A stretch of DNA of 64,000 bases from the sequence record NC_133255.1. One strand, given 5' to 3'. Position 1 is the first letter of the stretch; each line of letters starts with the position of its first letter. This document shows positions 16,706-49,146 of the stretch, one piece after another. The translations under genes and the position numbers were made by a program. This DNA comes from Escherichia phage vB_EcoS-26175I. The notes beneath the pieces were generated by a model. It worked only from the letters and a program-made list of their open reading frames with translations. It did no database searches and was not told the origin of the DNA.

Positions 16706-16738
16706 AAATAGTTCCTAATCTTACAAATTTATGAATAT

Positions 16739-16767
16739 ATTATACAGAAAATTTCGGCATTAAGCAA
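16739..16767 (-). promoter_or_regulatory. sigma70-type early promoter
   Basis: attata 16739-16744, aagcaa 16762-16767. Confidence 0.55.
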
Positions 16768-16775
16768 GTGAAATT

Positions 16776-17072: not shown

Positions 17073-17102
17073 ATTTGATTCCTCTCTCAAATTTATAAAT
17101 AT

Positions 17103-17131
17103 ATTATACAGAAATTTTCTATATTAAGCAA
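17103..17131 (-). promoter_or_regulatory. sigma70-type early promoter
   Basis: attata 17103-17108, aagcaa 17126-17131. Confidence 0.55.
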
Positions 17132-17139
17132 GTGAAAAT

Positions 17140-17170
17140 TTCTGTATAATAGCCCTCGCTTAGAGGGCTA
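17140..17170 (-). terminator. hairpin downstream of pnuC
   Basis: stem agccctc / gagggct, loop gctta. Confidence 0.4.
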
Positions 17171-17178
17171 TAGCTACT

Positions 17179-18913: not shown

Positions 18914-18943
18914 GTTTGATTCCTCTCTCAAATTTATAAATAT

Positions 18944-18972
18944 ATTATACAGAGAATTTAGCATTCAAGCAA
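18944..18972 (-). promoter_or_regulatory. sigma70-type early promoter driving nadR-pnuC
   Basis: attata 18944-18949, aagcaa 18967-18972. Confidence 0.55.
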
Positions 18973-19110
18973 TCGAATTTTTAAACTTTTTAGTGGAAAA
19001 ATCTCAAGGCATTTAGTGGTAGCACGTTGTTGCTGCAATAATAGTATATGATTCTAAAGAATTAAATACTAAAGACCTTAGTTGAATAACTTATGGGATT
19101 TTCTTTTACC

Positions 19111-19152
19111 TTAAATACAGAAAAGCCCGCGCTCTCGGAGGAAACGCGGGCT
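19111..19152 (-). terminator. rho-independent terminator downstream of SPFH gene
   Basis: stem agcccgcg / cgcgggct followed on minus strand by tttctgtattt. Confidence 0.55.
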
Positions 19153-19176
19153 TGTTTCGAAGATTACGTGGAACTA

Positions 19177-20121
19177 TTACTTATTACGCATATCCATAAT
19201 CATTTGACCATCGTAGCCAGTACCGACAACAGTCTGCGGTACACCACCTTGGTATTTTTCAGCACGAAGCATTTCAACTTCCAGCTGCTTCCAACGAATC
19301 ATTTCAGGAGTAATGGTACGTTGCAGAGCGGCGTTAGCTTCAGCTTCTTTCTTAGCTGCGTACAGTTTAGCATCTGCGTCACGTTCGTTAGCTACTGCCA
19401 TGTTTTCACGAGCGGAACGATCTGCCTCAGCTTGCTTAACTTTCTGCTGTGCTTCTTGTTCAACACGAGCCAGTTCAGCTTTTGCAGCGTTAACTTGTTC
19501 TTCACGAACTTTAGTGTTCTGTACCTGTTCCATGATTACCGGTGGCAGAGTAATATCCTGAAGGAATACTTGCTTAACCGTGTAACCATAAGGACGCGCG
19601 TACTCTTCTACCTCTTGCTGAATAGCAGTTTGCAGTTGAGCCTGAATCTTAGCGTCGAACAGATCTTGTGCTTTTGGTACGGACTTACCAAACTCACGAA
19701 TCGTAGACAGCATCTTCTCTTCAACGTATTTGTTCAGAGCCTGATCCTGAGTACCTGCGTTAACACGGTTCATAGGAGCTTTAGCACCATCAAACTGCAA
19801 CATAACGGTAATGTCAACAGTAGACTTAAACTTATCCTGGCTAGGAACCTGAAGTTTATCCAGTTTCATGGAAATATCTTTCGTACTAAAAGTATCAAAA
19901 GAAGCAAATGGGTTAACAATATGGAAGCCTGGCAATACAGGATTAGGGCTAACTTTACCCAGGAAGGTTTGAGTCTTAACAGTACCATCCTGAACAACTG
20001 TATAGGAATTGAGAGCCAGAATAAGAGCACCAAGACCAACAGCAGCACCAACACCCCAACGTTTAATAGTACGAATTACTTTTTGCTCAGAAGTCAGTTC
20101 TTTAGTGTTTTTAGTAAACAT
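19177..20121 (-). CDS. SPFH/band-7 (prohibitin/HflC-like) membrane protein
   Basis: N-terminal TM, SPFH-like core, C-terminal Ala/Glu/Gln-rich coiled coil; terminator hairpin 19111-19152 downstream. Confidence 0.65.
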   Translation of the reverse strand: MFTKNTKELTSEQKVIRTIKRWGVGAAVGLGALILALNSYTVVQDGTVKTQTFLGKVSPNPVLPGFHIVNPFASFDTFSTKDISMKLDKLQVPSQDKFKSTVDITVMLQFDGAKAPMNRVNAGTQDQALNKYVEEKMLSTIREFGKSVPKAQDLFDAKIQAQLQTAIQQEVEEYARPYGYTVKQVFLQDITLPPVIMEQVQNTKVREEQVNAAKAELARVEQEAQQKVKQAEADRSARENMAVANERDADAKLYAAKKEAEANAALQRTITPEMIRWKQLEVEMLRAEKYQGGVPQTVVGTGYDGQMIMDMRNK

Positions 20122-20132
20122 ATATTTCCTTA

Positions 20133-20333
20133 TTATTTAGAAGAGTTATCTACTACAGTTACTTTAGTTGCAGAAATAAATAGGCTAGCATCCACAGCAA
20201 ATTCAGGAGCTTTGATATCTCCATTATGAAATATGACTATACCGGAGACTACTTCAAATGCTAGTGCTGTAACATCGGTGGTCTTTAGTTGTGAATGTTC
20301 ACCTACTACTTTTACTATATATCGTGTTTTCAC
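20133..20333 (-). CDS. hypothetical protein
   Basis: 66 aa ORF. Confidence 0.3.
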   Translation of the reverse strand: MKTRYIVKVVGEHSQLKTTDVTALAFEVVSGIVIFHNGDIKAPEFAVDASLFISATKVTVVDNSSK

Positions 20334-20359
20334 TTTATTTTCCTAGCAGTTAATAAAAT

Positions 20360-20434
20360 TGGCCGAGGTGACAGGATTCGAACCTGCATAAAGGAATTTA
20401 GAAGACTCCTGCCTATCCCTTAGACTACACCCCG
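20360..20434 (-). tRNA. tRNA-Arg (anticodon TCT)
   Basis: T-arm acagg-attcgaa-cctgc; anticodon stem ggaat/actcc (one GU); loop ctTCTaa. Confidence 0.65.
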
Positions 20435-20442
20435 AGAATAAA

Positions 20443-20952
20443 TTACTTAATGATTTCGTTCAGTTTGGTTTGGCTTTCTAGCGCTGCTTTAGCTGATTTC
20501 TCAGCATCCCTAGCAGCACGTCGTGCTTTAGAGTCAATCAATAGCTTGTCATACTTGATATTAACGAACTCTTTAATATCATGGTAGAAACGTTGATGTG
20601 CCATGTATTCTTGTGCATCTGCATCGTAACAGCGCATATAGAAGTAATCACTAGGCTCTCCACGAAGTGTACGCTCTAGAATCTGAGGTCGATAACGACG
20701 TAATGTATCTTTCGCCATTTTTATTTCATCAGTTTCTTCACCAAGCTGAACTAGGTGATAAAGACGAGTATTGTCGATGTAATCCAAAGCTACGCTAAAG
20801 TATTCACCTTCTCGAAGATTGTATCCTGTAATCTCACTCATTTTCTCACGAGCTTGATCAAGTGTCAGGCGTTCTGGAAAATGTGCTATATGCAGAATAC
20901 GAGGGCAACACATTTCTTGATGATCAAAGATACAAGTTGTTCCTAGATTCAT
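20443..20952 (-). CDS. hypothetical protein
   Basis: 169 aa ORF downstream of the 1-kb ORF-poor region. Confidence 0.4.
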   Translation of the reverse strand: MNLGTTCIFDHQEMCCPRILHIAHFPERLTLDQAREKMSEITGYNLREGEYFSVALDYIDNTRLYHLVQLGEETDEIKMAKDTLRRYRPQILERTLRGEPSDYFYMRCYDADAQEYMAHQRFYHDIKEFVNIKYDKLLIDSKARRAARDAEKSAKAALESQTKLNEIIK

Positions 20953-21921
20953 ATTGATTCCTTTTGTTAGGTATTTTTAAGAACTCTCGTAAAAGTCCTT
21001 AAAGATACCCGGCGGTAGGTAGGGTCAGCCCCCTCAGATTAAGCTCTGCAGCCCTTCCGTCAGACAATATCTTCCAGTTTAAGTCAGGGTGACTTTGTGG
21101 TTATTCAGCTAAGGCTGATCGGCAGCTCTTAGGTCATGACTCCTCGTCGCTCTTTACTCACCGGCTAGGAAGTTATCTCGAGTTCTTCCTAGCTCTTTAG
21201 TCGTGCCATTAAGGTGCCTTCTAAGAGACTTACCTTTTCCCACTTTCGATTTGGGCATGTATCAGGTAAGGGTAGCCAAATCAGCATCCTAGTCCTACGG
21301 GGTCTCATCAAATTACATACCACCGCTTTTCGATATGTAATGCCCATGTCTATACGGGAGAAGAAAATGGGCATCTTTCTCTTCGTCTGATAGCTTGAAA
21401 AACGACTCCTCATGGAGGAAAAACTTCACTATCTAGGCTAAAGCCTAAAGTTCTTCTTTAATCCGGCAAAGCAAAACCGTAGTATATACTTTTCAGGAAT
21501 GGTTGGTTAGTCTGGAACCAACTACCGCGTGGTTTTGGCAGTGCACAGCTGCCTGCGATTGCTTCGCCATTAGAAGCACCAGTTATCCAACTCTTTCCGA
21601 CCGTGGGACTCGAACCCACATCTTCAGGCGGTGAAGCCCTAATAATACCTATTATACTAGGACGGCAGTGTTGTTACATAAGTGGTTTCGGCACCCCACT
21701 AACATAAACTAGAGAAGAGTTTACGAGATTTCGGGACAGCTCCCGAGTTTTCCGCAGATTTTCAGTTCCCTATCAATAGCAATAAGCGTTAGCTCGTAGC
21801 CTCTCTCAGAGTACTTACTAGTCTCCAACTCACCGACTCTATTCAGTGGAATAGCTATCCTAGTAGGAGTCACTAAACTCACTCAGCGTAATCGGCTCGC
21901 TGTTCTCTAATTTATGAATCT

Positions 21922-35753: not shown

Positions 35754-35945
35754 CTACAATTTTAAATAAGCCTATGATATTGCATTTAAATAAAAAATTT
35801 GCTTGCTTTTATTGGGAAATGTATGGTACTAGATAATCATTTTATATCGCGTACACGGGTGCGTGATTATACTATTTTTAGTAGAGGTTGGCAAATAAAA
35901 TTTTTTGACTCAGATCAATTTACAGAATGTTATAGTAAAATATTG

Positions 35946-35974
35946 TTGACATCCGCCTTCGAATGAGTTATAAT
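35946..35974 (+). promoter_or_regulatory. consensus sigma70 promoter (TTGACA-17-TATAAT) for nrdD
   Basis: ttgaca 35946-35951, tataat 35969-35974, RBS gaaggagag, ATG 36004. Confidence 0.7.
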
Positions 35975-36003: not shown

Positions 36004-37878
36004 ATGAATCGCAATGAAGAACTAAAGTATAAAGGAATGCAGTCCTTGATTCGAAACTGCAAAGAAATTATCGAAGGTTCAGCAGATGAAGAGCTGCTGT
36101 TTAATAATGCCAATAAGCCCTCAGAACGTTTCCCTACACAAAGGGATATGCTTGCAGGGGAATTGAGTAAATATCTGATTCTGGAAGAAATGCCAATCCA
36201 GATTCGAAATGCTCACATGATTGGTGATATTCACTTCCATGATGCTGATTACGCTGCGTTAGGTATGACTAACTGTTGCCTGGTTGCTTTGGAAGATATG
36301 TTGAAGAATGGTATGAAGGTTGGTAATGCTGAAATCAGTACACCAAACTCTATTACTACTGCGGCTGCTATCACAGCTCAGATTATCACTCAGGTTAGTT
36401 CACATCAATATGGTGGTACTTCTGTAGACCGATTAGATGAAGTACTGGCTCCTTATGTTCGTAAGTCTTATGATAAGAATCATGCGTTTGCAAAACGTTG
36501 GACTAAGGATGAAGCCAAAGCATCTGTAATGGCTACGGAAATGACTGAGAAAGAAGTTTACGATGCCTGTCAGGGCCTGGAGTATGAAATCAATACGATG
36601 TTCAACTCTAATGGTCAGAGTCCATTTATTACCTTTGGTTTTGGTCTAGGAACTTCCTGGGAAGCACGTCTTGTACAGAAAGCAATCTTAGAAGTGCGTA
36701 TGGATGGTTTGGGTATCAATAAACGTACAGCTATCTTCCCTAAACTGGTATTTGTTTTGCGTGATGGCGTAAACATGAAACCTGGTGATGTTAACTATGA
36801 TATCAAGAAGTTAGCTATGAAATGTACTGCCGAACGTATGTACCCCGACTATATCAGTTATGATAAGGTTGTAGAAGTTACTGGTGACTATAAAGTCTCT
36901 ATGGGTTGTCGTTCATTCCTGGCTGCTGCGGAAGATGGTGAAACTTCTGGTCGTAACAACTTAGGCGTTGTTTCCGTAAACCTTCCTCGAATCGCTATCG
37001 AAGCAGAAGGAAATATTGATCTATTCTTCGATCTGCTTGAGCTGCGTGTGGATACCGCGTTAAAAGCATTGGAGTGGAGGGTTGATCGCTTAAAATACAT
37101 TCAAGCTAAAGCTGCGCCCATCCTCTATATGTCAGGAGCCTTTGGATTACGTCTGGGACCCGATGAATATGTATTTGATCATTTCTACAAGCGTGCTTCT
37201 GTATCTCTAGGATATATTGGTTGCCACGAAATGTTGCAGCTCATGTTTGGTAAAGATGTAGATACAATGTCTGAGTCTTGTATCAAGTTCGTTCAACGTG
37301 TGCTACAATATATGCGTGATCGTGCTGATCAGAAGAAGGAAGAGACTCAGTTAGGTTATAGTCTGTATGCTACACCATCTGAATCTCTGTGTGATCGCTT
37401 CTGTCGTCTAGACCGTGAGTACTTCCCAGAGCATGAGGATATTCTGGCTAAAGGATACTACACTAACTCCCATCACCTTGATGTAGAACGTAAGGTTGCT
37501 CCAAATGTGAAATTTGATTATGAGTCTAACTTTACTCCTATTGCTTCTGGTGGGTGCATTTCCTACGTGGAATTACCTGACATGAAGAAATTCCCAGATG
37601 CCCTAGAATGGGTAATTAACTATGCTGCAAGTAAAGTTCACTACTTTGGTATTAATACTCCAGTTGATTCTTGTGGTGAGTGTGGATTCTTAGGCGAAAC
37701 AATTGCTTCTGAAGATGGATTTAAATGCCCAATTTGTGGCAACCATGATCCTGAGACTCTTGAGGTAACACGTCGTGTTTGTGGGTACCTTGGTAATCCA
37801 GGTGCACGCCCATTTAACCCAGGTAAACAGCATGAGGTTATGGGACGAATCAAGCATGCAGATGTAAGAGCTAAATAA
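36004..37878 (+). CDS. nrdD: anaerobic ribonucleoside-triphosphate reductase (class III)
   Basis: 624 aa; C-terminal Zn ribbon CGECG...CPICG and glycyl radical motif RRVCGYLG; consensus promoter and RBS upstream. Confidence 0.9.
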   Translation: MNRNEELKYKGMQSLIRNCKEIIEGSADEELLFNNANKPSERFPTQRDMLAGELSKYLILEEMPIQIRNAHMIGDIHFHDADYAALGMTNCCLVALEDMLKNGMKVGNAEISTPNSITTAAAITAQIITQVSSHQYGGTSVDRLDEVLAPYVRKSYDKNHAFAKRWTKDEAKASVMATEMTEKEVYDACQGLEYEINTMFNSNGQSPFITFGFGLGTSWEARLVQKAILEVRMDGLGINKRTAIFPKLVFVLRDGVNMKPGDVNYDIKKLAMKCTAERMYPDYISYDKVVEVTGDYKVSMGCRSFLAAAEDGETSGRNNLGVVSVNLPRIAIEAEGNIDLFFDLLELRVDTALKALEWRVDRLKYIQAKAAPILYMSGAFGLRLGPDEYVFDHFYKRASVSLGYIGCHEMLQLMFGKDVDTMSESCIKFVQRVLQYMRDRADQKKEETQLGYSLYATPSESLCDRFCRLDREYFPEHEDILAKGYYTNSHHLDVERKVAPNVKFDYESNFTPIASGGCISYVELPDMKKFPDALEWVINYAASKVHYFGINTPVDSCGECGFLGETIASEDGFKCPICGNHDPETLEVTRRVCGYLGNPGARPFNPGKQHEVMGRIKHADVRAK

Positions 37879-37910
37879 TGAATCAGCCAGGTCGCTAGTC
37901 GATCTGGCTT
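37874..37910 (+). terminator. rho-independent terminator after nrdD
   Basis: inverted repeat gccag...ctggc followed by ttttatttt. Confidence 0.5.
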
Positions 37911-37919
37911 TTATTTTAC

Positions 37920-37948
37920 TTGCTTTCTAGCTAAAACTTATGTATAAT
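37920..37948 (+). promoter_or_regulatory. sigma70 promoter with extended -10 (TGTATAAT)
   Basis: ttgctt 37920-37925, tataat 37943-37948. Confidence 0.55.
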
Positions 37949-37977
37949 TGATTTATAAATTTGAGAGGAGAAAACGA

Positions 37978-38196
37978 ATGGCAAAAGTACCACAAGAATT
38001 TACGGATGGAATTAAGGCAGATCTAGATGTAATGCTAATGGCCCAATGGGAGTCTGGCTTCCGAGATGGAATTGATTGTTGTGTGGCCGTGCTCGATACT
38101 ATTAGTTGGCAGCTTATTCAATCTGGAAATGATGCAGAAGGCAACCTTCTAGCTAACCTTTCTAAACAAATTAGGGAAATGAAATGCGCAGATTAA
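37978..38196 (+). CDS. hypothetical small protein
   Basis: SD GAGAGGAG before ATG 37978; promoter 37920-37948. Confidence 0.3.
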   Translation: MAKVPQEFTDGIKADLDVMLMAQWESGFRDGIDCCVAVLDTISWQLIQSGNDAEGNLLANLSKQIREMKCAD

Positions 38197-39035
38197 TTAT
38201 TGTTAGTGGTGCAGGTTTGAGTGTAGACAGTGGTGTTCGTGCTTTCCGTACTGATACTTCTAGTGGAAAATCTTTGTGGGATGAGTACGATCTAGAGGAA
38301 GTATGTAGCTTGCCTAACTTTGAAGCTGGCTTCCGTCGCTTCTGTGGTGAAGATGATCCTAACTACTTCAGTGCTCGTTTCCCTGGCATTGATGAAGATG
38401 GTAACGATCTGTATCTCAAGACTCATGAGTTCTACAACATGCGTCGTCAGGAATTACAGACTGTTGAGCCTAACATTGCCCATCTGCGAATTGCAGAATG
38501 GTTCCAGCGTTATGGTGCGGATAGCGTGAAGAACTTCACTACTAACGTTGATGACCTTCTGGAACGTGCTGGTATCCCTCGTGATGAAATCATCCATGCT
38601 CACGGATACTTGAAAGAGGTGATCTATCGTCGGGGTCGCAATCAAATCATCGAAGATGTTGGATACACTGCAATTGTTCCTGAAGATTACGAATGGGTAA
38701 AACCAAACGTGGTGTTCTTTGGTGAGACAGCTCCGTGGTACATGGGTCAAATCAACCTGTTTGATACTCTTACTAGCAATGACATGGTTATTGTGGTGGG
38801 TTGTAGTAACCAAGTTATCAACTTCAACTGGGAATTATTTCCTGCTGTATGTCGTGGAACTAAGATGATGGTTGTTAACCCACAAGTTCGTTATGACGAG
38901 CAGCTTGAGTATGAGAAACGTGGTGTTACTGTATGGCGTGCTGGAGCTGCCGAAGTTTTTGGTAACAAGCATTTCATTGATCAAGTTGAAGCCTTTATGG
39001 AAGGAACTATTTATGCACCAGAAAAACATAGGTGA
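38184..39035 (+). CDS. Sir2-family (sirtuin-like) NAD-dependent protein, no zinc-ribbon module
   Basis: GAGLSVDSGVRAFR (cf. GAGISxxSGIPxFR), TTNVDDL, HAHG, KPNVVFFGE, VIVVGCS; the four Zn-binding Cys are absent. Confidence 0.6.
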   Translation: MRRLIIVSGAGLSVDSGVRAFRTDTSSGKSLWDEYDLEEVCSLPNFEAGFRRFCGEDDPNYFSARFPGIDEDGNDLYLKTHEFYNMRRQELQTVEPNIAHLRIAEWFQRYGADSVKNFTTNVDDLLERAGIPRDEIIHAHGYLKEVIYRRGRNQIIEDVGYTAIVPEDYEWVKPNVVFFGETAPWYMGQINLFDTLTSNDMVIVVGCSNQVINFNWELFPAVCRGTKMMVVNPQVRYDEQLEYEKRGVTVWRAGAAEVFGNKHFIDQVEAFMEGTIYAPEKHR

Positions 39036-39175
39036 TCTTTTAGTATGGCCGGATGGTAGTTGGTGCTACCGTTTCGAATTTGCTACCGATGACTTCTCAT
39101 GGAAGAGTGATGATTTCTGCGTTATCTACGAAGATACAGCGGAATGGAAAGAATTCCTGATTAAGGAGGGAGAAT

Positions 39176-39361
39176 ATGGTGAAGAAGATTTTTAAGGGTA
39201 TCTGGAAAGGTCTAGTATGGTTTGTCAACCTAATTGGTATGATTACCATTTATTCTCTGTTCCTATCTGTTATGTGGGGTAAAGGTGAACTGAAGGTTCC
39301 GGTTCCTTTTACTAATGAAGTTAAAGTCTGGACGTGGGATGCTACTGGTGGAAATAAGTAA
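39176..39361 (+). CDS. small membrane protein
   Basis: 61 aa with one TM helix. Confidence 0.3.
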   Translation: MVKKIFKGIWKGLVWFVNLIGMITIYSLFLSVMWGKGELKVPVPFTNEVKVWTWDATGGNK

Positions 39362-39854
39362 TACTCCTGTGATTTTCCTGGATATTGATGGGGTGCTCAA
39401 TTCGAGCATCTCTCACCATCATGCTCCAGATAATGAAAAGCTGTTCTTTGGCAGTGATTGGGTTTATAAACCGTTACTCCAGGCTTTTCAGAACTTCCTT
39501 AAACCTTCTCCAATAATGATTGTTGGGGTATCTTCATGGTTTTCTGTACGAAACGAGATGGAGAACGTTCAGATTATGACCGGGCTCGGTTTGATCGATC
39601 GTTTTCTTGGTACAACAGATTTTACTGGTGGCGGTTTATCTCGTGGTAATTCTGTCTTACGTTTCGTAGAAAAACATAAGCTCAAGCATTGGTGCGTCCT
39701 AGATGATGCTGGTGCTATGATGTATCAATTTCCTACTGTTATTGTAAATGGCAGGACTGGAATAAACTTTCAAGATTTAAATGCTATCAGCTATACGCTG
39801 GAATTTAGTCCAGATCTTGAAATGTGTAAGGCTCTTCAGAAACTCAAGGTGTAG
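39339..39854 (+). CDS. HAD-superfamily phosphatase (possible nucleotidase)
   Basis: HAD motif I FLDIDGVLN near N-terminus. Confidence 0.5.
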   Translation: MLLVEISNTPVIFLDIDGVLNSSISHHHAPDNEKLFFGSDWVYKPLLQAFQNFLKPSPIMIVGVSSWFSVRNEMENVQIMTGLGLIDRFLGTTDFTGGGLSRGNSVLRFVEKHKLKHWCVLDDAGAMMYQFPTVIVNGRTGINFQDLNAISYTLEFSPDLEMCKALQKLKV

Positions 39855-39856: not shown

Positions 39857-40285
39857 ATGTTCGATAATCTTTTCATGAAAGAGGTAAACCCTATGCTTCT
39901 CAACTTCTGGCGTTCTCTCCCTAATGGTATGTACAATGAAACCATCAATCTGCTTAAGATTTGGTGTGAGAATAACGATATCTTCTTATCCTTTAAAGGC
40001 CCACTAGAGGAAGCTCCGTGTATTGGAGTTAGTGTGGATTTAGGGGAGGGAGTAGAAGAAATTGTGGACTGGAAAGAACTCGATGAAATGGGTCTGGTTT
40101 TTGCCTTGAACCATAAGCTGTTTATGCCTGCAAATCACCGTCTTATTGTAAATTATCGCACTGGTGAAGCTCCTGCTTTCCAGGTAAATGAACGTGAGGG
40201 CTGGTCATATTCGCCCGAGGAAGTAAATGAGGGGATTCAGAAACTTCGTCGTTTCGGGTATATGATCCCAGGTTTAACTGCTTAA
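39857..40285 (+). CDS. acidic protein, tandem paralog A
   Basis: shares W-EL--MGL--ALN...TGE-P...PGL pattern with next ORF. Confidence 0.4.
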   Translation: MFDNLFMKEVNPMLLNFWRSLPNGMYNETINLLKIWCENNDIFLSFKGPLEEAPCIGVSVDLGEGVEEIVDWKELDEMGLVFALNHKLFMPANHRLIVNYRTGEAPAFQVNEREGWSYSPEEVNEGIQKLRRFGYMIPGLTA

Positions 40286-40294
40286 GGAGGCAGA

Positions 40295-40690
40295 ATGGAA
40301 CAAGTATTTTGGCGTCAGATAGATCCTAGTTTGGTAGAGCGTGCTGAAGGGCTCCTTGCACGTTGGTTGGGGGTTGACAAGGTTAGTGTAACATTTCCGT
40401 TTACTTCTGTAACAGACCCTAGTGTAGGTGTCTTTGTGGACGAAGATGAAGATGATGGTTGGGAAGCTGACTGGAATGAATTGTCCAGCATGGGCTTGAT
40501 TGTTGCCCTCAACTTCTCTATATTCCATCCACGTGGCTTAGCCATTACACGTGACCCCGAGACTGGTGAATCCCCTTATCTTTTGCAAGTAGAAGATGAT
40601 ATTTGGGAGTACACCGAAGATATTCTCGAAGAAGCTAAAGGTCAATTAAATCTCATTGGAATCTATGTCCCAGGCCTAAATGTTGATTGA
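40295..40690 (+). CDS. acidic protein, tandem paralog B
   Basis: paralogous to 39857-40285; terminator-like hairpin downstream. Confidence 0.4.
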   Translation: MEQVFWRQIDPSLVERAEGLLARWLGVDKVSVTFPFTSVTDPSVGVFVDEDEDDGWEADWNELSSMGLIVALNFSIFHPRGLAITRDPETGESPYLLQVEDDIWEYTEDILEEAKGQLNLIGIYVPGLNVD

Positions 40691-40810: not shown

Positions 40811-41402
40811 ATTTATATTGAATTGAGAGACATTAGTAAAAATTGATTTTGCTAATTTTTCTTAATGAAGCTGACAATGGATTTACGGCGAGAGCGATCG
40901 ATGACCCGTAAATAGCTGCATAAGGTACGTTGCTAGAGCTTTATGAAAAAGTTTTTCTTGTTTACAATCCGCAATACGGAACAGTTAGGCTGCCCCATTA
41001 AAGGTTGTTTTAACTATTACTAGTGTTTATACTGCATTAGTTAATTATCAATTAAGTGATCTGCGTACCCTGAATTCGGAAAGGTAAATCCAAACCGTGC
41101 ATATTTAGCTCGTTATATAGGCAGAGCTTTATATGGGGGTGCGAACGAAAAGAGCAGCGAATGGTGACACGTCCAGTAGCCACCTACCAATAGGATAGTG
41201 AGGGCAATCAGAATCGGCTTAGCGGCCAATGACCTAGGTTCTGATCTGGATAAGAGTTAAGAGAGCGCAGCACTGAGGTATGATAACTTATTCATACTGC
41301 TTGATGATGATTAATGTTTGTGTAAATGGTAGTAATAGTTGTTCTATTCTTTTGAATAGTCCTAAAGAAAGATATCCGAATAACCAACATAGGAGTATTG
41401 TT

Positions 41403-44192
41403 GTGTTCTCAATCCTACAAGGTCACGCAGGATTTTCCAGAGATAAAGCCACTGGCATCTGGAAAGAGATCAAAGTGGAAGATTACACCTTTGCAAAGCG
41501 ATTCTCTAAAGAGCATCCAGAAGGTAAACCAGCTTCCATGCCCTTCAAATTTGACGTACTTGAAGAACTTGACCCGCAAAACCTTGCTGAAATGTTACCT
41601 ATCATGCGTCGTCTTACCAAAGATCCGCATATTGTAGCTATTCGTGGTAAATGTCTAGCTCCAAAAGATAATGTGCGTCGTACCAGAGGAAACTTTAACG
41701 TATCCAATCCTAGTCATATTATTGCTATGGACGTGGATGGTATTGTAGATACTGGTGGCTATGACAAGTTTAATCTTGTTGGCATGGCACGTCATATTAT
41801 TAAGATGTTGAATAGTATTAGTGAGGATATGTTTCCTCTTGATGCAGGGTTTATTGCCCATGCATCGTCTTCGGCTGGATTAAAACCAGGTATCCGAATG
41901 CACTTAATGCTAGAATCTAATGTCAAGGTAACGCAGGGACAGTTAAAGTTCTTATTTACATCTATCAATGATAGTAGTAAGCAAAAGTACGGCTTTGATA
42001 TTGCTGACTTAGCTTATTATTCTTCTGTTCAGCTTCACTATTTCGCAGATCCCTTATTTGATGATGGTATAGTCGATCCGTTTAAAGCGGAGAATAAACC
42101 ACGTCTTGTGTATGTTAAGGGTTCGAAGGTGAATCTACCTAATAACCTAGTTGACTTTGAGACAACTAGAGGTGAGTTTAAAGAAGAATTCTATTCCTTA
42201 CTTGACCAAATTAAAGGCAAGAAGGCTGCATCTGATAAAGTGGAAGAAACCATCAGCGAACTAGAAGAAGCTGAGGATGGAGTGTACCTGCGTATTATCC
42301 CAAAGCTGTATCACAGAGCATTGGAAGATGGTGTGGACTTCGCATGGTTAGAAAAGGAGATTAAACCAGCCTTATCTGAGTATATTGCAACTAAGGATAA
42401 TAGTCGTAACATTCAAGATTACTTTAATAACGGTCGTAAGCAGGCTCTCAAAGCCTTTGTAAATAACTCCAAACGTGAGATTCCACCAAACTTAAAAGGT
42501 GTACCATTAAAACGTCTAGATACAGATTCACCACCAGAAGTTCCATACCTGAAAATTAACATTGTACCACCAAAAGGACATTTAACATTTGTTAAGGCAA
42601 GTCTTGGTACGGGTAAAACTACAGCAGTAACTAAGTGGCTAGATGCAGGTGTTCTTCCAGGAAACTTTATTGCAATCACGAATACTAGGGCACTTGTATC
42701 TTCAAACGCGAAGAAATTCAGTGCTGGCCAGTATGATAAGTCAGTTGATATGCTAAACTTCAAACGTGGTGCTATTGATCGTATGTCTTCAACTATTCAC
42801 TCTATCCATAAGTTCAAGAGCTTTGTGGGTCAGATTGATACGATCTTTATTGATGAATGTGATGCAGTAATGAATGATCTGTTATTCGCTCCGGTTGTTA
42901 AAAACCGTCGTGAATGTATTCAGGTTCTTCGTGATATCCTTATTACTGCTAAAACTGTTATCTTATCTGATGGTGATATCAGTGCAGAAACGATTGAAGC
43001 CTATGGTTCTTTGATTGATTTTGATAAACCAGTTGCATTCTATAATCATCACCGTAAAATGCTGGCGAAAGCTCACGCTTATGAATTCCCTGACGAATCC
43101 AGTATTTGGGTTGCACTTCAAACATCTCTAGAGATGGGGGAGAAGTCAATCCTAGTATCTGACTGTGGACCGGATGAACTGAATGAAAAGGGAATGGCGT
43201 TACGTCGTAATACTGGTGCGTTAGTTAAAGAAATTCACTCAAACTCTACATCTGATGTAGATATCCGACGTATTCTGGATTATACAACTAATGAGCTAAT
43301 TGATCAACAGATTGATTGTTTGTTATGTAGTCCATCTGTAACGAGTGGTGTTGACTTTAACTATTTTGATAACGTATTCGTAATCACTAGAACCTCAAAC
43401 CAAGCGCCAAACATGCGTTTCCAAGCAATCAGGCGCGACCGTGGTGCTCAGAATATCTATTACTTCATTGATAAGTCTACAAGTGGATTTTCTGCGGGTT
43501 CCGAGCAGTATAATATTGATGAAGGTTGGATTGAGTTAGCCCAACAACTGTACGCACGTCGTCGTGAGCTGGAATCTAAAAACTATACTAGTACTTTGCG
43601 TTATTATCTACTTGATCAGGGTGCAACTATTGATATTTTCAGTGAAAGCTGGGGAACTATCGAAGGTGCAGGCAAAGAGTATACAGAAGAGCGAATCAAA
43701 GCTATTTTGTACTCAACTCCTGAATATTGCGCACCACGTCATGCAGATGCCTATGAAGCCAAGATACTTCTGGTTCGCTATTATCATCTGGATTCTATTA
43801 AAGATGTAACAGTGGAACACGTTGAACAGTATATCAAGGATAAACCGAATGATCGAGCTGCATTTTTCCATAAGATGCACGAGATGTTCTGGGAAGATAT
43901 TAAAAAGTGTTCAAACGTAACAATCAAACCGTTTATCGAAGCTCTTAAGAATAAGAAGAAGGATTTCTTCCTTAAGACAGGTCAGAGCGCTAACCCAAAA
44001 TATGCTCGTATGTATCTTGGCATGATGGGTATCGGTAAAGATCTGGATACGGAAAAGATTGTGGACTGGTACAGAACTTACTGTAAGATCGAATGTATGC
44101 CGATTCCAGTTAAGTTTATGACAGATGAAGAACGTCAGATGCATGAGGAAGCTCTTGCTGAATTGGGAGCTAGAAATGACAGTGAAGAATAA
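41403..44192 (+). CDS. large P-loop NTPase/helicase-like replication protein
   Basis: Walker A ASLGTGKTTAV and Walker B IFIDECD; probable GTG start at 41403 after SD AGGAG (longest ORF begins 41280). Confidence 0.55.
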   Translation: MFSILQGHAGFSRDKATGIWKEIKVEDYTFAKRFSKEHPEGKPASMPFKFDVLEELDPQNLAEMLPIMRRLTKDPHIVAIRGKCLAPKDNVRRTRGNFNVSNPSHIIAMDVDGIVDTGGYDKFNLVGMARHIIKMLNSISEDMFPLDAGFIAHASSSAGLKPGIRMHLMLESNVKVTQGQLKFLFTSINDSSKQKYGFDIADLAYYSSVQLHYFADPLFDDGIVDPFKAENKPRLVYVKGSKVNLPNNLVDFETTRGEFKEEFYSLLDQIKGKKAASDKVEETISELEEAEDGVYLRIIPKLYHRALEDGVDFAWLEKEIKPALSEYIATKDNSRNIQDYFNNGRKQALKAFVNNSKREIPPNLKGVPLKRLDTDSPPEVPYLKINIVPPKGHLTFVKASLGTGKTTAVTKWLDAGVLPGNFIAITNTRALVSSNAKKFSAGQYDKSVDMLNFKRGAIDRMSSTIHSIHKFKSFVGQIDTIFIDECDAVMNDLLFAPVVKNRRECIQVLRDILITAKTVILSDGDISAETIEAYGSLIDFDKPVAFYNHHRKMLAKAHAYEFPDESSIWVALQTSLEMGEKSILVSDCGPDELNEKGMALRRNTGALVKEIHSNSTSDVDIRRILDYTTNELIDQQIDCLLCSPSVTSGVDFNYFDNVFVITRTSNQAPNMRFQAIRRDRGAQNIYYFIDKSTSGFSAGSEQYNIDEGWIELAQQLYARRRELESKNYTSTLRYYLLDQGATIDIFSESWGTIEGAGKEYTEERIKAILYSTPEYCAPRHADAYEAKILLVRYYHLDSIKDVTVEHVEQYIKDKPNDRAAFFHKMHEMFWEDIKKCSNVTIKPFIEALKNKKKDFFLKTGQSANPKYARMYLGMMGIGKDLDTEKIVDWYRTYCKIECMPIPVKFMTDEERQMHEEALAELGARNDSEE

Positions 44193-47005: not shown

Positions 47006-47200
47006 ATGACAATAACACTTCCAAAGATTCAAGCAAAACTTAATTTGCTCTCCATGGCAAGAAGCAACTATCAGGATAGTATCGGCACCCCAAACCAGAA
47101 AGCATACAAAGATGCATGGTTGAAAGAAGCTGCTGATTTAGCTGGTATGGCTGCTCAGTATAATAAAGAACTCAAAATGGAAATCGCAGACGATGAATAA
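47006..47200 (+). CDS. hypothetical protein
   Basis: 64 aa ORF. Confidence 0.3.
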   Translation: MTITLPKIQAKLNLLSMARSNYQDSIGTPNQKAYKDAWLKEAADLAGMAAQYNKELKMEIADDE

Positions 47201-48164
47201 TGTAAAAGACTTTATCAAACGTTGTCAAGAAGCGTACTACCAGGGAATGAGTCTTATTTCCGATGAAGAATATGATCGTCTAATTAAAAGATTCCCTCTA
47301 GAGGAAGAAATCGGACCGAAAGGTGATATCCCTCATTTGTATCGTATGTATTCTTTGCAGAAAGTCTATTATGGTCGTGGTGATAAATCTCCGTTCAATC
47401 CATTAGGTCAGGTTGAAACTGATAAGTTAGATGGTTGTGCGATTTCCCTATTATATATTAATGGTGAGTTTGTTCAAGCGTTAACTCGTGGTAACGGTAT
47501 TCTAGGGAATGATGTAACGCATAATGTTAAAATGCTGAACATCCCCAAAACTATTTCCCAAAAAGTACCAACTCAAATCACTGGTGAAGTTCTCATTACT
47601 AAAGAAGTAGAGAACAAACGTAACTATGCTTCTGGTGCTATTAACCTGAAAGATAGTGATGATTTCATGCAACGTATTGGTGAAGGTGGTTTAATCTTCG
47701 TTGCATATGGTATCCAGTGTTCAGCGGAAACAGTCGGTATTACAGAAGCCTATTTAAAAGATATGCTTTGGCTAGAGAATGAGAACTTCTTGACAGTTGT
47801 TAATGTTCGTTCCTTCTTTAAATGGATTCCGACAGATGGTAAAGTTGTTCGCATTAACGACAATAATAAATTCTTCCGTGAAGGTTGGACTAATAAATTT
47901 CCTCGTGGTGCATTTGCTATTAAAGAGGATGAAGAAGGCGAAATTACCACACTTGTTAAAGTTGAATGGCAAGTAGGGGCTTCTGGTAAGGTAACTCCAG
48001 TTGGTTATTTCGAACCGGTGATTATTGATGATGCCACAATCGTTAAAGCAACTCTTAATAACGTTGATTATATTAACGCTCTCGATTTAGAGATCGGTTG
48101 CCAGATTCGAGTGATTCGTGCTGGTGGTGTAATCCCTTGTATAGTAGAGCGAGTATACGACTAA
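47193..48164 (+). CDS. NAD-dependent DNA ligase, N-terminal (adenylation/OB) part
   Basis: N-terminus EEYDRLIKRF like LigA Ia domain; adenylation lysine motif KLDG. Confidence 0.75.
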   Translation: MNNVKDFIKRCQEAYYQGMSLISDEEYDRLIKRFPLEEEIGPKGDIPHLYRMYSLQKVYYGRGDKSPFNPLGQVETDKLDGCAISLLYINGEFVQALTRGNGILGNDVTHNVKMLNIPKTISQKVPTQITGEVLITKEVENKRNYASGAINLKDSDDFMQRIGEGGLIFVAYGIQCSAETVGITEAYLKDMLWLENENFLTVVNVRSFFKWIPTDGKVVRINDNNKFFREGWTNKFPRGAFAIKEDEEGEITTLVKVEWQVGASGKVTPVGYFEPVIIDDATIVKATLNNVDYINALDLEIGCQIRVIRAGGVIPCIVERVYD

Positions 48165-48307
48165 TTCGTAACCCTTTGCTACCCGTTTACCATGTCGGAA
48201 TTATAAAGTGGTTATTGACATTTTCGCCGCTTAGGTATATACTATTATCATTCAGTTGAGGGATAGAAAGTTATGGCGAGGGTAAGCAAAGTTAGTTAAA
48301 ATTGTAG

Positions 48308-48336
48308 TTGCTAAATGCTTAAATACTTGCTATAAT
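48308..48336 (+). promoter_or_regulatory. sigma70 promoter between the two ligase ORFs
   Basis: ttgcta 48308-48313, tataat 48331-48336. Confidence 0.55.
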
Positions 48337-48363
48337 ATTTATATAAATTGATAAGGAAGAAAT

Positions 48364-49146
48364 TTGATGAAAATCGAAATTCCAACACAATGTCCCTCTT
48401 GTGGTTCTAAGCTAGATCTTGTCAACGGGCAATTATTCTGTAGGAATAAGTCCAACTGTCCAGCGCAATCAAGTAAGTTAATCGAGAACTTCTGCACAAA
48501 AATGAAGTTAAAGGGCTTTGGCCCGAAAACTATTGAGAAGCTGGAGCTGACTAAGATCTCAGAACTGTTTTACCTGACCGAAGAAGATTTGGTCGGAGCT
48601 GTGGGTAGCAAGGTTGCCACTAAGTTGATTAGCGAGTTAAATACTAAGGTTCGCGGAGACATTGACTTTGGTTCAGTTCTCGGTTCTTTAGGAATTCCTC
48701 TTATTGGAGAGGTTGCAGCAAAGAAACTGTCCCAAAATTGCACTAGCTTCCACGATGTGAAGGCTGACGGCAAGGCTGGAGAAAATTACAAAACCTGGCT
48801 AAATTCCCCACAAGGCAAGGATGTTATTGAATTACCGTGGAAATTCTCAACTGGTATTCGAGGCATTAAAGCTGATATCATCATTACGGATGATTTAGTT
48901 GCCCAACCAAATGGAATCACGGTCTGTATTACCGGATCTTTGCAAGATTTTGCAAATCGAACGGATGCAACAAACTATTTAGAAAGTCTAGGATATACGG
49001 TTAAGAAGTCCGTTACCAAAGATGTCAAATACCTAATCTGTGAGGATGAATCAAAACGTTCTTCCTCATCTTATAAGAAAGCCGAAACGAATGGGATAGA
49101 AATCCTGTCGATTAAAGAACTATTGGAGAAAAATAATAATGTCTAA
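48364..49146 (+). CDS. NAD-dependent DNA ligase, C-terminal (Zn-finger/HhH/BRCT) part
   Basis: CPSCGSKL...CRNKSNCPAQ zinc finger then HhH-like and BRCT-like regions; own promoter 48308-48336. Confidence 0.75.
   Translation: MMKIEIPTQCPSCGSKLDLVNGQLFCRNKSNCPAQSSKLIENFCTKMKLKGFGPKTIEKLELTKISELFYLTEEDLVGAVGSKVATKLISELNTKVRGDIDFGSVLGSLGIPLIGEVAAKKLSQNCTSFHDVKADGKAGENYKTWLNSPQGKDVIELPWKFSTGIRGIKADIIITDDLVAQPNGITVCITGSLQDFANRTDATNYLESLGYTVKKSVTKDVKYLICEDESKRSSSSYKKAETNGIEILSIKELLEKNNNV

What the first reader, a model, noticed from the sequence alone, without database searches (positions are those of the whole stretch)
38184..39035. Sir2-like protein without the zinc-ribbon module, immediately downstream of nrdD
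The ORF keeps sirtuin Rossmann-fold motifs (GAGLSxxSGVxxFR, TTNVDDL, HAHG, VVFFGE, VVGCS) but lacks the four Zn-binding cysteines. Sir2 domains act as deacylases, ADP-ribosyltransferases or NADases. Together with pnuC-nadR and NAD-dependent ligase in the same window, this phage appears invested in NAD chemistry; the actual activity is unknown.
Basis: partly seen in the sequence, partly recalled or inferred. Interest (0 to 1): 0.65.

Follow-up and report, generated by a model that had tools for sequence, protein, structure and literature searches.

The report
Zinc-free sirtuin of T5-like phages
This is the long-annotated 'Sir2-like' gene of T5-like phages: a real sirtuin-fold, NAD-using enzyme that has lost its zinc-binding cysteines, and whose true substrate (predicted to be damaged RNA ends rather than acetylated proteins) has never been tested.

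Summary
The window is an Epseptimavirus (T5-like phage), 100% identical here to Escherichia phage vB_EcoS-26175II.

The gene is not new:
- It is annotated 'Sir2-like' in hundreds of phage records.
- Zinc loss in phage Sir2 was reported in 2016.
- A Tpt1/KptA-like RNA-repair role was predicted in 2022.
- The window's pnuC-nadR pair was characterised in 2026 as the NARP3 counter-defence pathway.

I confirmed and extended the context evidence. A HAD_SAK_2 'RNA-repair' phosphatase lies 280 bp downstream. In other lineages the neighbours are Rnl1, cREC, 2H, Nudix, RlaP, NADAR and PTH2.

My preferred reading is NAD-dependent removal of RNA 2'-phosphates (confidence about 0.4). A CobB-like protein deacylase is the main rival. 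No experiment exists for either.

The parts
38184..39035 (+). sir2: Zn-free, class-III-derived sirtuin, 283 aa
   Evidence: ORF; Pfam PF02146 E=8e-22; PHROG 2162; AF2 model pLDDT 88.6, pTM 0.86; fold matches
38208..38249 (+). NAD-binding motif GAGLSVDSGVRAFR (residues 9-22)
   Evidence: G9, A10, G11, S16, F21 and R22 invariant in 73 homologues
38250..38273 (+). Cofactor-binding loop with a clade-specific 4-residue insertion (TDTSSGKS, residues 23-30)
   Evidence: Only low-confidence stretch of the model, pLDDT <50; 4-residue gap in CobB in the HMMER alignment; T23, D24 and G28 nearly invariant
38433..38447 (+). Y84-N-M-R87-R88: class-III sirtuin YxxR anion-binding motif
   Evidence: Aligns with CobB FYNARRR, i.e. 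Y92/R95 in CobB numbering; Y84, R87 and R88 invariant
38538..38558 (+). TTNVDDL (residues 119-125): TQN(I/V)D motif with Gln replaced by Thr
   Evidence: T120, N121, V122 and D123 invariant; Zn-containing distant relatives keep TQN
38601..38606 (+). Catalytic His140-Gly141
   Evidence: Invariant; aligns with the catalytic HG of CobB
38607..38699 (+). Former zinc-ribbon segment (residues 142-172) without cysteines, retained as a beta-hairpin sheet
   Evidence: No Cys; strands 141-150 and 153-158 at pLDDT >90; same length as CxxC...CxxC relatives
38700..38726 (+). KPNVVFFGE (residues 173-181): FGE substrate/NAD loop
   Evidence: K173, P174, F178, F179 and E181 invariant
38793..38831 (+). VVGCSNQVINFNW (residues 204-216): GxS motif, with VINF replacing the canonical V-x-P substrate strand
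   Evidence: G206, S208, V211, I212 and F214 invariant; N213 aligns with CobB P221
39315..39854 (+). HAD_SAK_2 phosphatase (motif FLDIDGVLN); likely real start at about 39339. Probable functional partner
   Evidence: Pfam PF18143 E=7e-19; conserved 0-460 nt downstream of sir2 in most T5-like loci; 477 phage records; mislabelled 'Sir2' by PHROG 18062
37948..38196 (+). 82-aa ORF of unknown function; its stop overlaps the sir2 start by 13 nt
   Evidence: phrog_5827; replaced by other small ORFs in TrudiRoth
39013..39195 (+). Small ORF (phrog_5116) overlapping the sir2 stop
39176..39361 (+). Small ORF, 61 aa (phrog_11166), between sir2 and the HAD gene
39857..40690 (+). Two tandem DUF7415 paralogues (39857..40285 and 40295..40690) that close the same-strand gene array
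   Evidence: Pfam PF24187 E=9e-37 and 4e-28
36004..37878 (+). nrdD (anaerobic ribonucleotide reductase), upstream gene
   Evidence: Pfam NRDD E=5e-172
37885..37909 (+). Terminator-like hairpin between nrdD and the sir2 array
   Evidence: 10-bp stem, 6 GC pairs, T-rich tail
17179..18964 (-). pnuC (17179..17871) and nadR-like NMNAT/RNK gene (17858..18964): the NARP3 NAD+ reconstitution module, 19 kb from sir2
   Evidence: Pfam NMN_transporter E=1e-42; CTP_transf_like + AAA_28; 96% DNA identity to TrudiRoth bas30_0086/87 region; function shown in PMC13464706
47193..49146 (+). Split NAD-dependent DNA ligase (A subunit 47193..48164, B subunit 48364..49146)
   Evidence: Pfam DNA_ligase_aden, DNA_ligase_OB, BRCT, HHH

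Best explanation
The protein is a catalytically competent sirtuin of the canonical type, derived from class III (CobB/SIRT5-like), that belongs to a phage-specific clade which has lost the structural zinc.

Proposed mechanism:
1. It binds NAD+, expels nicotinamide, and transfers ADP-ribose to an oxyanion acceptor. His140 then activates the ribose 2''-OH for a second, cyclising step.
2. The acceptor is most likely not an acyl-lysine but a 2'-phosphate on cleaved or repaired RNA, chiefly tRNA. This is the chemistry of Tpt1/KptA carried out on a different fold. [quoted passage not shown]
3. The HAD_SAK_2 phosphatase encoded 280 bp downstream would process either the RNA phosphate ends or the phosphorylated ADP-ribose product.
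4. The biological role would be to protect the phage's and host's tRNA pool from RNA-cleaving host defences. The stoichiometric NAD+ cost would be covered by the host pool and, in this genus, by NARP3 (PnuC-NadR).

Shown: fold, conserved NAD and catalytic residues, loss of Zn ligands with retention of the module, and the gene neighbourhoods.
Inferred: that NAD+ is cleaved, the identity of the acceptor, the role of the HAD enzyme, and the biological purpose.

The RNA 2'-phosphate idea is a published computational prediction (Iyer et al. 2022, PMC9503650), not mine.
For: Competent enzyme:
- G9, A10, G11, S16, F21, R22, N121, D123, H140, G141, F178, F179 and E181 are invariant.
- The model is confident and sirtuin-like.

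Context in independent phage lineages. Each item is a phosphate-, RNA-end- or ADP-ribose-processing gene next to a Zn-free Sir2:
- T5-likes: HAD_SAK_2.
- rV5-likes: Rnl1 and cREC directly upstream, plus an AAA_33 kinase and a metallophosphoesterase.
- Eneladusvirus jumbo phage: 2H/Acb1-like, Sir2, a Nudix-cREC fusion and PIN-PhoH, with NMNAT and NAMPT upstream.
- A marine phage contig: HAD_SAK_2 2.3 kb downstream.
- A T4-like contig: RlaP-Sir2-NADAR.
- Another contig: Sir2 overlapping PTH2 by 4 nt.

Other points:
- No macro domain is adjacent, and the published argument matches.
- The invariant YxxR pocket, which in class III sirtuins binds an anionic group, could accommodate a phosphate (inference).
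- The canonical V-x-P peptide-binding strand is replaced by an invariant VINF.
- The cofactor loop carries a conserved insertion.
- The window encodes 31 tRNAs, so tRNA integrity matters to this phage.
- In DT57C, Sir2 and the HAD gene were destroyed together, leaving one fused remnant.
Against: - No experiment exists. Five literature searches found no biochemical or genetic test of any phage Sir2.
- The nearest sequence and structure relatives are all protein deacylases.
- This phage lineage has no detectable RNA ligase, polynucleotide kinase, cREC, 2H, RlaP or NADAR anywhere in the genome (annotation; tblastn). A phage-encoded repair pathway would therefore be incomplete and would need host enzymes.
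- HAD_SAK_2 is absent next to Sir2 in Klebsiella and Pectobacterium T5-likes (loci L010, L011, L019).
- Several lineages show no RNA-repair neighbour: the ~150-kb coliphages, KVP40-likes and locus L068.
- Synteny within T5-likes is inherited, so it counts as one observation.
- T4-type Rnl1 repair does not itself create a 2'-phosphate (general knowledge).
Confidence: 0.4

Rival explanations
1. It is an NAD+-dependent protein lysine deacylase like CobB, possibly preferring acidic acyl groups such as succinyl or malonyl. It would reset acylation of host or phage proteins during infection, for example metabolic enzymes or the transcription/translation machinery.
For: - The best sequence and fold matches are E. 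coli CobB, Sir2Af1/2, SIRT5 and Sir2Tm.
- The catalytic His, the FGE loop and the class-III YxxR motif (Y84/R87, equivalent to CobB Y92/R95) are invariant.
- This function was suggested for the KVP40-like homologue in PMC5107563.
- It is the default annotation in hundreds of phage records.
Against: - All NCBIfam CobB/deacylase models score far below their cut-offs: 91 bits against 243 at best.
- The V-x-P substrate strand and the Zn site are changed.
- Gln of the TQN motif is replaced by Thr.
- The recurrent neighbours are phosphate- and ADP-ribose-processing enzymes, which a deacylase does not need.
- The host already has CobB.
Confidence: 0.3
2. It acts on small molecules of the NAD/ADP-ribose network, not on macromolecules. 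Options include destroying or remodelling NAD-derived immune signals, nicotinamide base exchange, or phosphoribosyl/ADP-ribosyl transfer that feeds NAD+ reconstitution. It would then be a counter-defence enzyme working alongside NARP-type pathways.
For: - It is adjacent to NAD+ salvage genes in three lineages: NMNAT and NAMPT in the jumbo phage (depositor's annotation); an NAPRTase-family gene plus PRPP synthetase in L064; and NARP3 in the same genome here.
- Some neighbours are known or candidate anti-defence or ADP-ribose-processing proteins: Acb1-like 2H, NADAR, Nudix-cREC and Apyc1-like.
- Sir2 is only 51-52% identical between this window and T5-type loci, while the flanking PhoH is 97-99% identical and the HAD gene 88-91%. 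Sir2 sequences of T5-likes also interleave with those of myoviruses. That pattern fits conflict genes.
Against: - There is no precedent for a canonical-type sirtuin with such an activity.
- PADLOC and anti-defence-type evidence is absent for Sir2 itself.
- NrdD shows a similar two-allele mosaic, so allele divergence may be plain mosaicism.
- Plain NAD+ hydrolysis would work against the phage's own NARP3.
Confidence: 0.15
3. It is a protein mono-ADP-ribosyltransferase used for host takeover. It would be the T5-group counterpart of T4 Alt/ModA/ModB, or of SirTM-type sirtuins.
For: - No ART-family gene is annotated in the TrudiRoth genome.
- The gene sits among early replication and nucleotide-metabolism genes.
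Against: - No macro-domain partner is adjacent.
- This reading does not explain the HAD, cREC, Rnl1 or RlaP neighbours.
Confidence: 0.1
4. It is an inactive or decaying remnant of a sirtuin, destabilised by zinc loss.
For: - The Zn ligands are lost.
- The gene is dispensable: DT57C carries only a 90-aa remnant.
Against: - There are 45 invariant positions, including every catalytic and NAD-binding residue, across sequences 57-97% identical.
- The full-length ORF is present in about 900 phage records from several families.
- The fold prediction is confident, including for the former Zn module.
- Zn-free forms make up dozens of 50%-identity clusters.
Confidence: 0.03

Closest known systems
Phage 'RNA-repair' sirtuin clade of Iyer, Burroughs, Anantharaman & Aravind 2022 (Viruses 14:1977, PMC9503650, section 3.7.3), type 3 neighbourhood (Escherichia phage SP15: sirtuin + HAD 'Swiss-army-knife' phosphatase)
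   Same: - Stand-alone sirtuin in a T5-like phage with a HAD_SAK_2 gene just downstream.
- Homologous to the rV5 and jumbo-phage sirtuins of the paper's types 2 and 1, whose neighbours I re-verified.
   Different: Nothing substantive: this is a member. The proposed activity remains a prediction. I add that the lineage lacks a ligase and kinase and that the clade is Zn-free.
Sir2-like protein of phage T5 and relatives (annotated since the T5 genome; PHROG 2162; bas30_0054 in BASEL phage TrudiRoth)
   Same: - Same locus (nrdD ... sir2 ... HAD ... DUF7415 x2) and same family.
- 96-97% identical to the TrudiRoth and S113 proteins.
   Different: Only 51-52% identical to the T5-type (Tequintavirus) Sir2 proteins, although the flanking genes are 88-99% identical.
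E. coli CobB (PDB 1S5P, 6RXJ) and other class III sirtuins (SIRT5, Sir2Af1)
   Same: - Shared NAD motifs, catalytic His, FGE loop, the YxxR anion pocket and the PNxAH helix.
   Different: - About 26% identity.
- No Zn cysteines.
- A 4-residue insertion in the cofactor loop and a 26-residue variable insertion in the helical module.
- TQN changed to TTN, and V-Y-P changed to V-I-N-F.
- NCBIfam scores far below cut-off.
Sir2/CobB of KVP40-like vibriophages (Skliros et al. 2016, PMC5107563)
   Same: A phage sirtuin reported there to lack the zinc ligand. The paper notes that T5 carries a homologue.
   Different: - Only 32-37% identical.
- The KVP40 type keeps the Pro of the V-x-P strand and has FNE instead of FGE.
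- That paper proposed protein deacetylation (activation of Acs).
Tpt1/KptA RNA 2'-phosphotransferase
   Same: [quoted passage not shown] Both associate with RNA-repair genes.
   Different: The fold is unrelated (ART fold against Rossmann sirtuin fold). It would be a functional analogue only, and this is untested.
Defence-type SIR2 NADases (ThsA, SIR2-HerA, DSR, SIR2-STAND/Avs5, prokaryotic Argonaute-associated SIR2)
   Same: Sir2 superfamily, often without a Zn ribbon, and NAD+-consuming.
   Different: - Absent from the top 60 profile hits against the PDB.
- No PADLOC hit.
- No fused or adjacent sensor or partner domain.
- Encoded by a virulent phage.

Membership tests
Sir2/sirtuin superfamily (Pfam PF02146) | Significant match to the family model above the curated threshold | tested here: met
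   78.5 bits against a cut-off of 24; covers residues 9-211, model positions 1-178 of 180
Sir2/sirtuin superfamily (Pfam PF02146) | Rossmann NAD-binding motifs GAGxS, SG(I/V)xxFR and (T)QN(I/V)D, plus the catalytic HG | tested here: met
   All present and invariant in 73 homologues. The one variation is Gln to Thr in TTNVD
Sir2/sirtuin superfamily (Pfam PF02146) | Sirtuin three-dimensional fold | tested here: met
   [not shown]
Canonical sirtuin deacylases, class III (CobB/SIRT5) | Structural Zn site, Cys4 (CxxC...CxxC) in the small domain | tested here: not met
   No Cys in residues 142-175 and no CxxC in 120 homologues. The segment is retained without ligands
Canonical sirtuin deacylases, class III (CobB/SIRT5) | YxxR motif of class III | tested here: met
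   Y84 and R87 are invariant and align with CobB Y92/R95
Canonical sirtuin deacylases, class III (CobB/SIRT5) | Curated family model score (NCBIfam CobB / protein deacylase equivalogs) | tested here: not met
   Best is 91 bits against a cut-off of 243; the other models score 37-74 bits against 221-395
Canonical sirtuin deacylases, class III (CobB/SIRT5) | V-x-P strand after G(T/S)S that staples the substrate peptide | tested here: not met
   GCSNQVINF: N213 sits at the Pro position and is nearly invariant in the clade
Canonical sirtuin deacylases, class III (CobB/SIRT5) | NAD+-dependent lysine deacylase activity | not testable with these tools
   Needs an enzyme assay. No published assay was found
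Defence-type SIR2 NADases (Thoeris ThsA, SIR2-HerA, DSR1/2, pAgo-SIR2, Avs5) | Match to defence-system protein models | tested here: not met
   No PADLOC family at E<=1
Defence-type SIR2 NADases (Thoeris ThsA, SIR2-HerA, DSR1/2, pAgo-SIR2, Avs5) | Closer in structure to defence SIR2 than to deacylase sirtuins | tested here: not met
   [not shown]
Defence-type SIR2 NADases (Thoeris ThsA, SIR2-HerA, DSR1/2, pAgo-SIR2, Avs5) | Fused or adjacent sensor or partner (SLOG, HerA, TIR, pAgo, STAND) | tested here: not met
   Single-domain 283-aa protein. The neighbours are small ORFs, HAD_SAK_2 and DUF7415
SirTM (macrodomain-linked ADP-ribosylating sirtuins) | Operon partner with a macro domain | tested here: not met
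   [not shown]
Phage RNA-repair-associated sirtuin clade (Iyer et al. 2022) | Phage-encoded stand-alone sirtuin homologous to the rV5, SP15 and Serratia-phage-BF proteins | tested here: met
   47% identical to the rV5 protein and 36% to an Eneladusvirus BF-species protein; same PHROG
Phage RNA-repair-associated sirtuin clade (Iyer et al. 2022) | Conserved neighbourhood with an RNA-end or ADP-ribose-phosphate processing enzyme (HAD_SAK, cREC, 2H, Nudix, Rnl1) | tested here: met
   HAD_SAK_2 lies 280 nt downstream and is conserved in most T5-like loci. It is not universal: absent in L010, L011 and L019
Phage RNA-repair-associated sirtuin clade (Iyer et al. 2022) | RNA 2'-phosphate ADP-ribosyl transfer activity | not testable with these tools
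   Prediction only
Tpt1/KptA (RNA 2'-phosphotransferase family) | ART-type fold and family signature | tested here: not met
   Only the SIR2 Pfam family matches, and the fold is Rossmann/sirtuin. It could only be a functional analogue

The most novel reading that the evidence does not exclude
A zinc-free sirtuin performs Tpt1-like chemistry. It uses NAD+ to strip 2'-phosphates from cleaved or religated RNA and releases ADP-ribose cyclic phosphate, which the adjacent HAD_SAK_2 phosphatase then clears. Together they form a minimal two-gene RNA end-healing module that lets T5-like phages keep their tRNA pool usable under attack by host RNA-cleaving defences. If so, it would be the first sirtuin shown to act on nucleic acid phosphate, and a new phage counter-defence. 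The idea was published as a prediction in 2022, so the novelty would lie in the demonstration.
Probability: 0.4. Interest if true: 0.7.

Novelty: already known. Interest (0 to 1): 0.3.

Why it matters
About 2% of sequenced phages (978 of 50,697 records) carry this sirtuin. They include model phage T5, the BASEL collection and many therapeutic Salmonella and E. coli phages. It is routinely labelled 'NAD-dependent deacetylase' without any test.

If it is a nucleic-acid- or ADP-ribose-directed enzyme, that label is wrong in hundreds of genomes. Sirtuin chemistry would then extend to RNA repair or counter-defence, in the same genomes that carry the newly characterised NARP3 NAD+-restoring system. 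The question is directly testable in tractable phages.

As a finding of this scan it is ordinary: a correct recognition of a known, already discussed gene family.

Tried and rejected
- **'Zinc-ribbon module deleted':** rejected. The segment has normal length and is confidently modelled.
- **Experimental work on phage Sir2:** five full-text searches found only annotations, one in-silico study (PMC5107563) and one comparative-genomics prediction (PMC9503650).
- **Zn-free canonical sirtuins in general:** the search returned nothing usable.
- **afdb50 fold library:** unavailable. The BFVD search only re-found phage Sir2 proteins.
- **Neighbours of Sir2 in the ~150-kb coliphages and KVP40-likes:** Pfam gave almost nothing, only a metallophosphoesterase and an AAA_28 kinase. 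The RNA-repair association could not be extended to those lineages.
- **ORF after Sir2 in marine contigs L072/L073:** I first took it for NadR-like. It is a CTP_transf_like plus CoaE-type kinase fusion, so whether it is NMNAT- or PPAT-type is unresolved. I do not count it as NAD salvage.
- **RNA-repair genes elsewhere in the genome:** tblastn for Rnl1, cREC, kinase, RlaP, NADAR, PTH2, 2H and Nudix-cREC in the window and the whole TrudiRoth genome found none.
Full report
**1. What is there**

The ORF at 38184..39035 (+) encodes 283 aa starting MRRLIIVSGAGLSVDSGVRAFR.

Family matches:
- Pfam SIR2 (PF02146): E=7.9e-22, 78.5 bits against a threshold of 24, covering nearly the whole model.
- PHROG 2162, 'Sir2 (NAD-dependent deacetylase)': E=6e-108.
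- PADLOC defence models: none.
- NCBIfam CobB/deacylase models: 37-91 bits, against cut-offs of 221-395.

**2. Where the window comes from**

The region is 100% identical to Escherichia phage vB_EcoS-26175II-V and 96-99.7% identical to many Salmonella, Escherichia and Citrobacter phages of the genus Epseptimavirus (Demerecviridae, T5-like). In those records the gene is either 'hypothetical protein' or 'Sir2-like protein / NAD-dependent deacetylase of SIR2 family'. In the BASEL phage TrudiRoth (Bas30) it is bas30_0054. By tblastn, 978 of 50,697 phage records encode a homologue. These include T5-likes, rV5-like and other 135-160-kb myoviruses, Klebsiella and Erwinia phages, KVP40-like vibriophages and jumbo phages.

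**3. Zinc site**

The protein has four cysteines (C41, C54, C207, C223) and none between the catalytic HG and the FGE loop. None of 120 close homologues has a CxxC motif.

The segment is not deleted, however. HG-to-FGE is 42 aa here, against about 45 aa in Zn-containing relatives that share the same 'IGY ... KPNVVFFGE' landmarks. AlphaFold models it confidently as strands 141-150 and 153-158.

In an exhaustive search of 1.84 billion cluster representatives, only 18 score E<=1e-30. The best-scoring representatives are almost all Cys-free in this segment. CxxC...CxxC forms appear from about E=5e-29 downward. One of these sits in a cellular context next to a lipoate-protein ligase. Two distant viral relatives (L062, L063) also keep the cysteines.

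Zinc loss is therefore a derived trait of a phage clade, not a truncation. The same observation was published for the KVP40-like homologue in 2016 (PMC5107563).

**4. Fold and catalytic residues**

The model built from a 73-sequence alignment has mean pLDDT 88.6 and pTM 0.86. Only residues 23-30 are uncertain.

Structural matches:
- Foldseek against the PDB returns only sirtuins in the top 50, led by E. coli CobB (E=3e-15, TM 0.83 normalised to CobB).
- A profile of the clade against all PDB sequences lists only canonical sirtuins in its best 60.

Invariant positions include G9, A10, G11, S16, F21, R22, N121, D123, H140, G141, F178, F179 and E181.

The helical module keeps the class III signature FYNxRR...PNxAH. 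Y84 and R87 align with CobB Y92 and R95. I derived that numbering from the engineered variants. In class III sirtuins this pair binds the carboxylate of succinyl- or malonyl-lysine (my knowledge of CobB and SIRT5).

Clade-specific departures:
- a conserved four-residue insertion in the cofactor loop (TDTxSGK);
- Gln to Thr in TQN;
- an invariant Cys41;
- VINF in place of the V-x-P strand, with N213 at the Pro position.

**5. Local gene array**

A perfect sigma-70 consensus lies at 35946-35974 and precedes nrdD (36004..37878). A terminator-like hairpin follows at 37885-37909. After it comes a tightly packed same-strand array:

| Coordinates | Feature |
|---|---|
| 37948..38196 | 82-aa ORF; its stop overlaps the sir2 start by 13 nt |
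| 38184..39035 | sir2 |
| 39013..39195 | small ORF |
| 39176..39361 | small ORF |
| 39315..39854 | 179-aa ORF, HAD_SAK_2 |
| 39857..40285 | DUF7415 paralogue |
| 40295..40690 | DUF7415 paralogue |

The 179-aa ORF carries the HAD motif FLDIDGVLN and matches PF18143, 'HAD domain in Swiss Army Knife RNA repair proteins', at E=7e-19. PHROG 18062 and several RefSeq records wrongly call this gene 'Sir2' as well.

**6. Context in other lineages**

Among 59 IMG/VR loci:
- T5-likes share nrdD-x-sir2-x-HAD-DUF7415x2. The HAD gene is missing in the Klebsiella and Pectobacterium types (L010, L011, L019).
- All rV5-like loci carry Rnl1, cREC, an AAA_33 kinase and a metallophosphoesterase around sir2. I verified these by Pfam for rV5, where cREC ends 9 nt before sir2.

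Other lineages:
- An Eneladusvirus jumbo phage has NMNAT, NAMPT, a 2H/Acb1-like protein, Sir2, a Nudix-cREC fusion and PIN-PhoH.
- A T4-like contig has RlaP-Sir2-NADAR.
- Another contig has Sir2 overlapping PTH2.
- A marine contig has HAD_SAK_2 2.3 kb downstream.
- L064 has an NAPRTase-family gene and PRPP synthetase upstream, and MazG downstream.

Lineages with no informative neighbour are the ~150-kb coliphages, the KVP40-likes and L068.

This reproduces and extends the three neighbourhood types described by Iyer et al. 2022. They proposed that this viral sirtuin clade acts like KptA/Tpt1 on RNA 2'-phosphates, with the neighbours either preparing the ends or disposing of ADP-ribose cyclic phosphate.

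**7. Mechanism**

Sirtuin catalysis has two steps. An oxygen nucleophile attacks C1'' of NAD+, and the His-activated 2''-OH then attacks that group. This is formally parallel to the two Tpt1 steps (abstracts). A phosphate acceptor is therefore chemically plausible, and the YxxR pocket could hold an anion. These steps are inference.

Against the model for this particular phage:
- No RNA ligase, polynucleotide kinase, cREC, 2H, RlaP or NADAR is detectable in the window or the whole TrudiRoth genome.
- HAD is not universal next to Sir2.
- The closest relatives are all protein deacylases.

The phage does carry 31 tRNA genes, so it has a stake in tRNA integrity. I give the RNA 2'-phosphate model 0.4, a CobB-like deacylase 0.3, small-molecule NAD/ADP-ribose or counter-defence chemistry 0.15, protein ADP-ribosylation 0.1, and an inactive remnant 0.03.

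**8. Further observations**

- Sir2 is only 51-52% identical between this window and T5-type (Tequintavirus) loci. PhoH is 97-99% identical, NrdD up to 97% and the HAD gene 88-91%.
- Sir2 sequences of T5-likes interleave with those of myoviruses in a star-like clade of 50-68% identity. This suggests allele exchange or fast evolution. NrdD also has two alleles, so plain mosaicism is an alternative.
- Phage DT57C has only a 90-aa 'defective Sir2' that fuses the C-terminal parts of Sir2 and HAD. Both genes are therefore dispensable in the laboratory and were lost together.

**9. NAD context**

The window contains a NadR-like gene with NMNAT and RNK domains (17858..18964, -), pnuC (17179..17871, -) and a split NAD-dependent DNA ligase (47193..49146). 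The orthologous TrudiRoth pair, Bas30_86/87, was shown in 2026 to import nicotinamide riboside and rebuild NAD+. That overcomes Sir2-HerA defence, and the pathway was named NARP3 (PMC13464706). NARP3 is largely restricted to Salmonella and Escherichia phages in that paper's survey, whereas Sir2 is found across T5-likes. The two are therefore not an obligate pair.

**10. Verdict**

The gene family, its zinc loss, its likely RNA-repair role and the neighbouring NAD module are all already in the literature or in database annotation. Novelty: already known. Interest: low to moderate, resting on the unresolved and testable biochemical activity.

Noticed in passing
window 39315..39854 (+): This HAD_SAK_2 phosphatase gene is labelled 'Sir2 (NAD-dependent deacetylase)' by PHROG 18062 and in several RefSeq phage records (for example S113 orf49). 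It looks like a propagated mis-annotation, probably seeded by a fused or defective ORF such as the one in DT57C.
   Followed up: yes
window 38184..39035 compared with loci L025-L060 (T5-type): Sir2 is only 51-52% identical between Epseptimavirus-type and T5-type loci, while flanking PhoH (97-99%) and HAD (88-91%) are nearly the same. In a neighbour-joining tree, Sir2 of T5-likes interleaves with Sir2 of unrelated myoviruses. This points to allele replacement or rapid divergence.
   Followed up: partly
window 36004..37878 (nrdD) compared with loci L009, L025, L038-L040, L045: NrdD also occurs as two alleles among otherwise near-identical T5-like loci: 88-99% or about 60% identity to the window protein.
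   Followed up: no
window 35866..35974: Back-to-back promoter-like sites lie between phoH and nrdD. One is a perfect TTGACA-17-TATAAT on the + strand (35946-35974). The other is an 11/12 match on the - strand (35894-35866).
   Followed up: no
window 37885..37909 and 37948..38196: A terminator-like hairpin sits right after nrdD. The segment between nrdD and sir2 is variable: one 82-aa ORF here, three different small ORFs in TrudiRoth, and no DNA similarity across that stretch.
   Followed up: partly
window 6463..21667 (-): There are 31 tRNA genes covering nearly all amino acids. One is called tRNA-SeC (anticodon tca) at 21594-21667, which is more likely a suppressor-like or miscalled tRNA.
   Followed up: no
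L066 (Escherichia phage DT57C) 3968..4240: A 90-aa 'defective Sir2' ORF is made of the C-terminal part of Sir2 (about residues 197-250) joined to the C-terminal part of the HAD protein (about residues 139-179). Both genes were lost together in a viable phage.
   Followed up: yes
window 39857..40285 and 40295..40690: Two tandem paralogues of DUF7415 follow the HAD gene in all T5-like loci examined. Their function is unknown.
   Followed up: no
L075 4917..7178; L076 6001..7100; L072/L073: Distant Zn-free phage Sir2 genes sit in three further arrangements: between RlaP (RNA-repair nucleotidyltransferase) and NADAR; overlapping a PTH2 peptidyl-tRNA hydrolase gene; or overlapping a CTP_transf_like plus CoaE-kinase fusion gene with HAD_SAK_2 further downstream.
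   Followed up: partly
L005 (Erwinia jumbo phage pEa_SNUABM_50) 1812..9500: One block holds NMNAT, NAMPT, an Acb1-like 2H phosphodiesterase, Sir2, a Nudix-cREC fusion and PIN-PhoH. It looks like a combined NAD-salvage, ADP-ribose-processing and possibly anti-CBASS island.
   Followed up: partly
L062 8001..9198 (279-kb viral contig): A distant viral Sir2 that still has both CxxC pairs is followed directly by a nucleoside 2-deoxyribosyltransferase-like gene (PF15891).
   Followed up: no
window 41280..44192 (+): The 970-aa ORF for the replication origin-binding/primase-helicase protein probably starts later than the first in-frame ATG. The TrudiRoth annotation corresponds to about window 41403. 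The first ~40 codons listed look non-coding.
   Followed up: no
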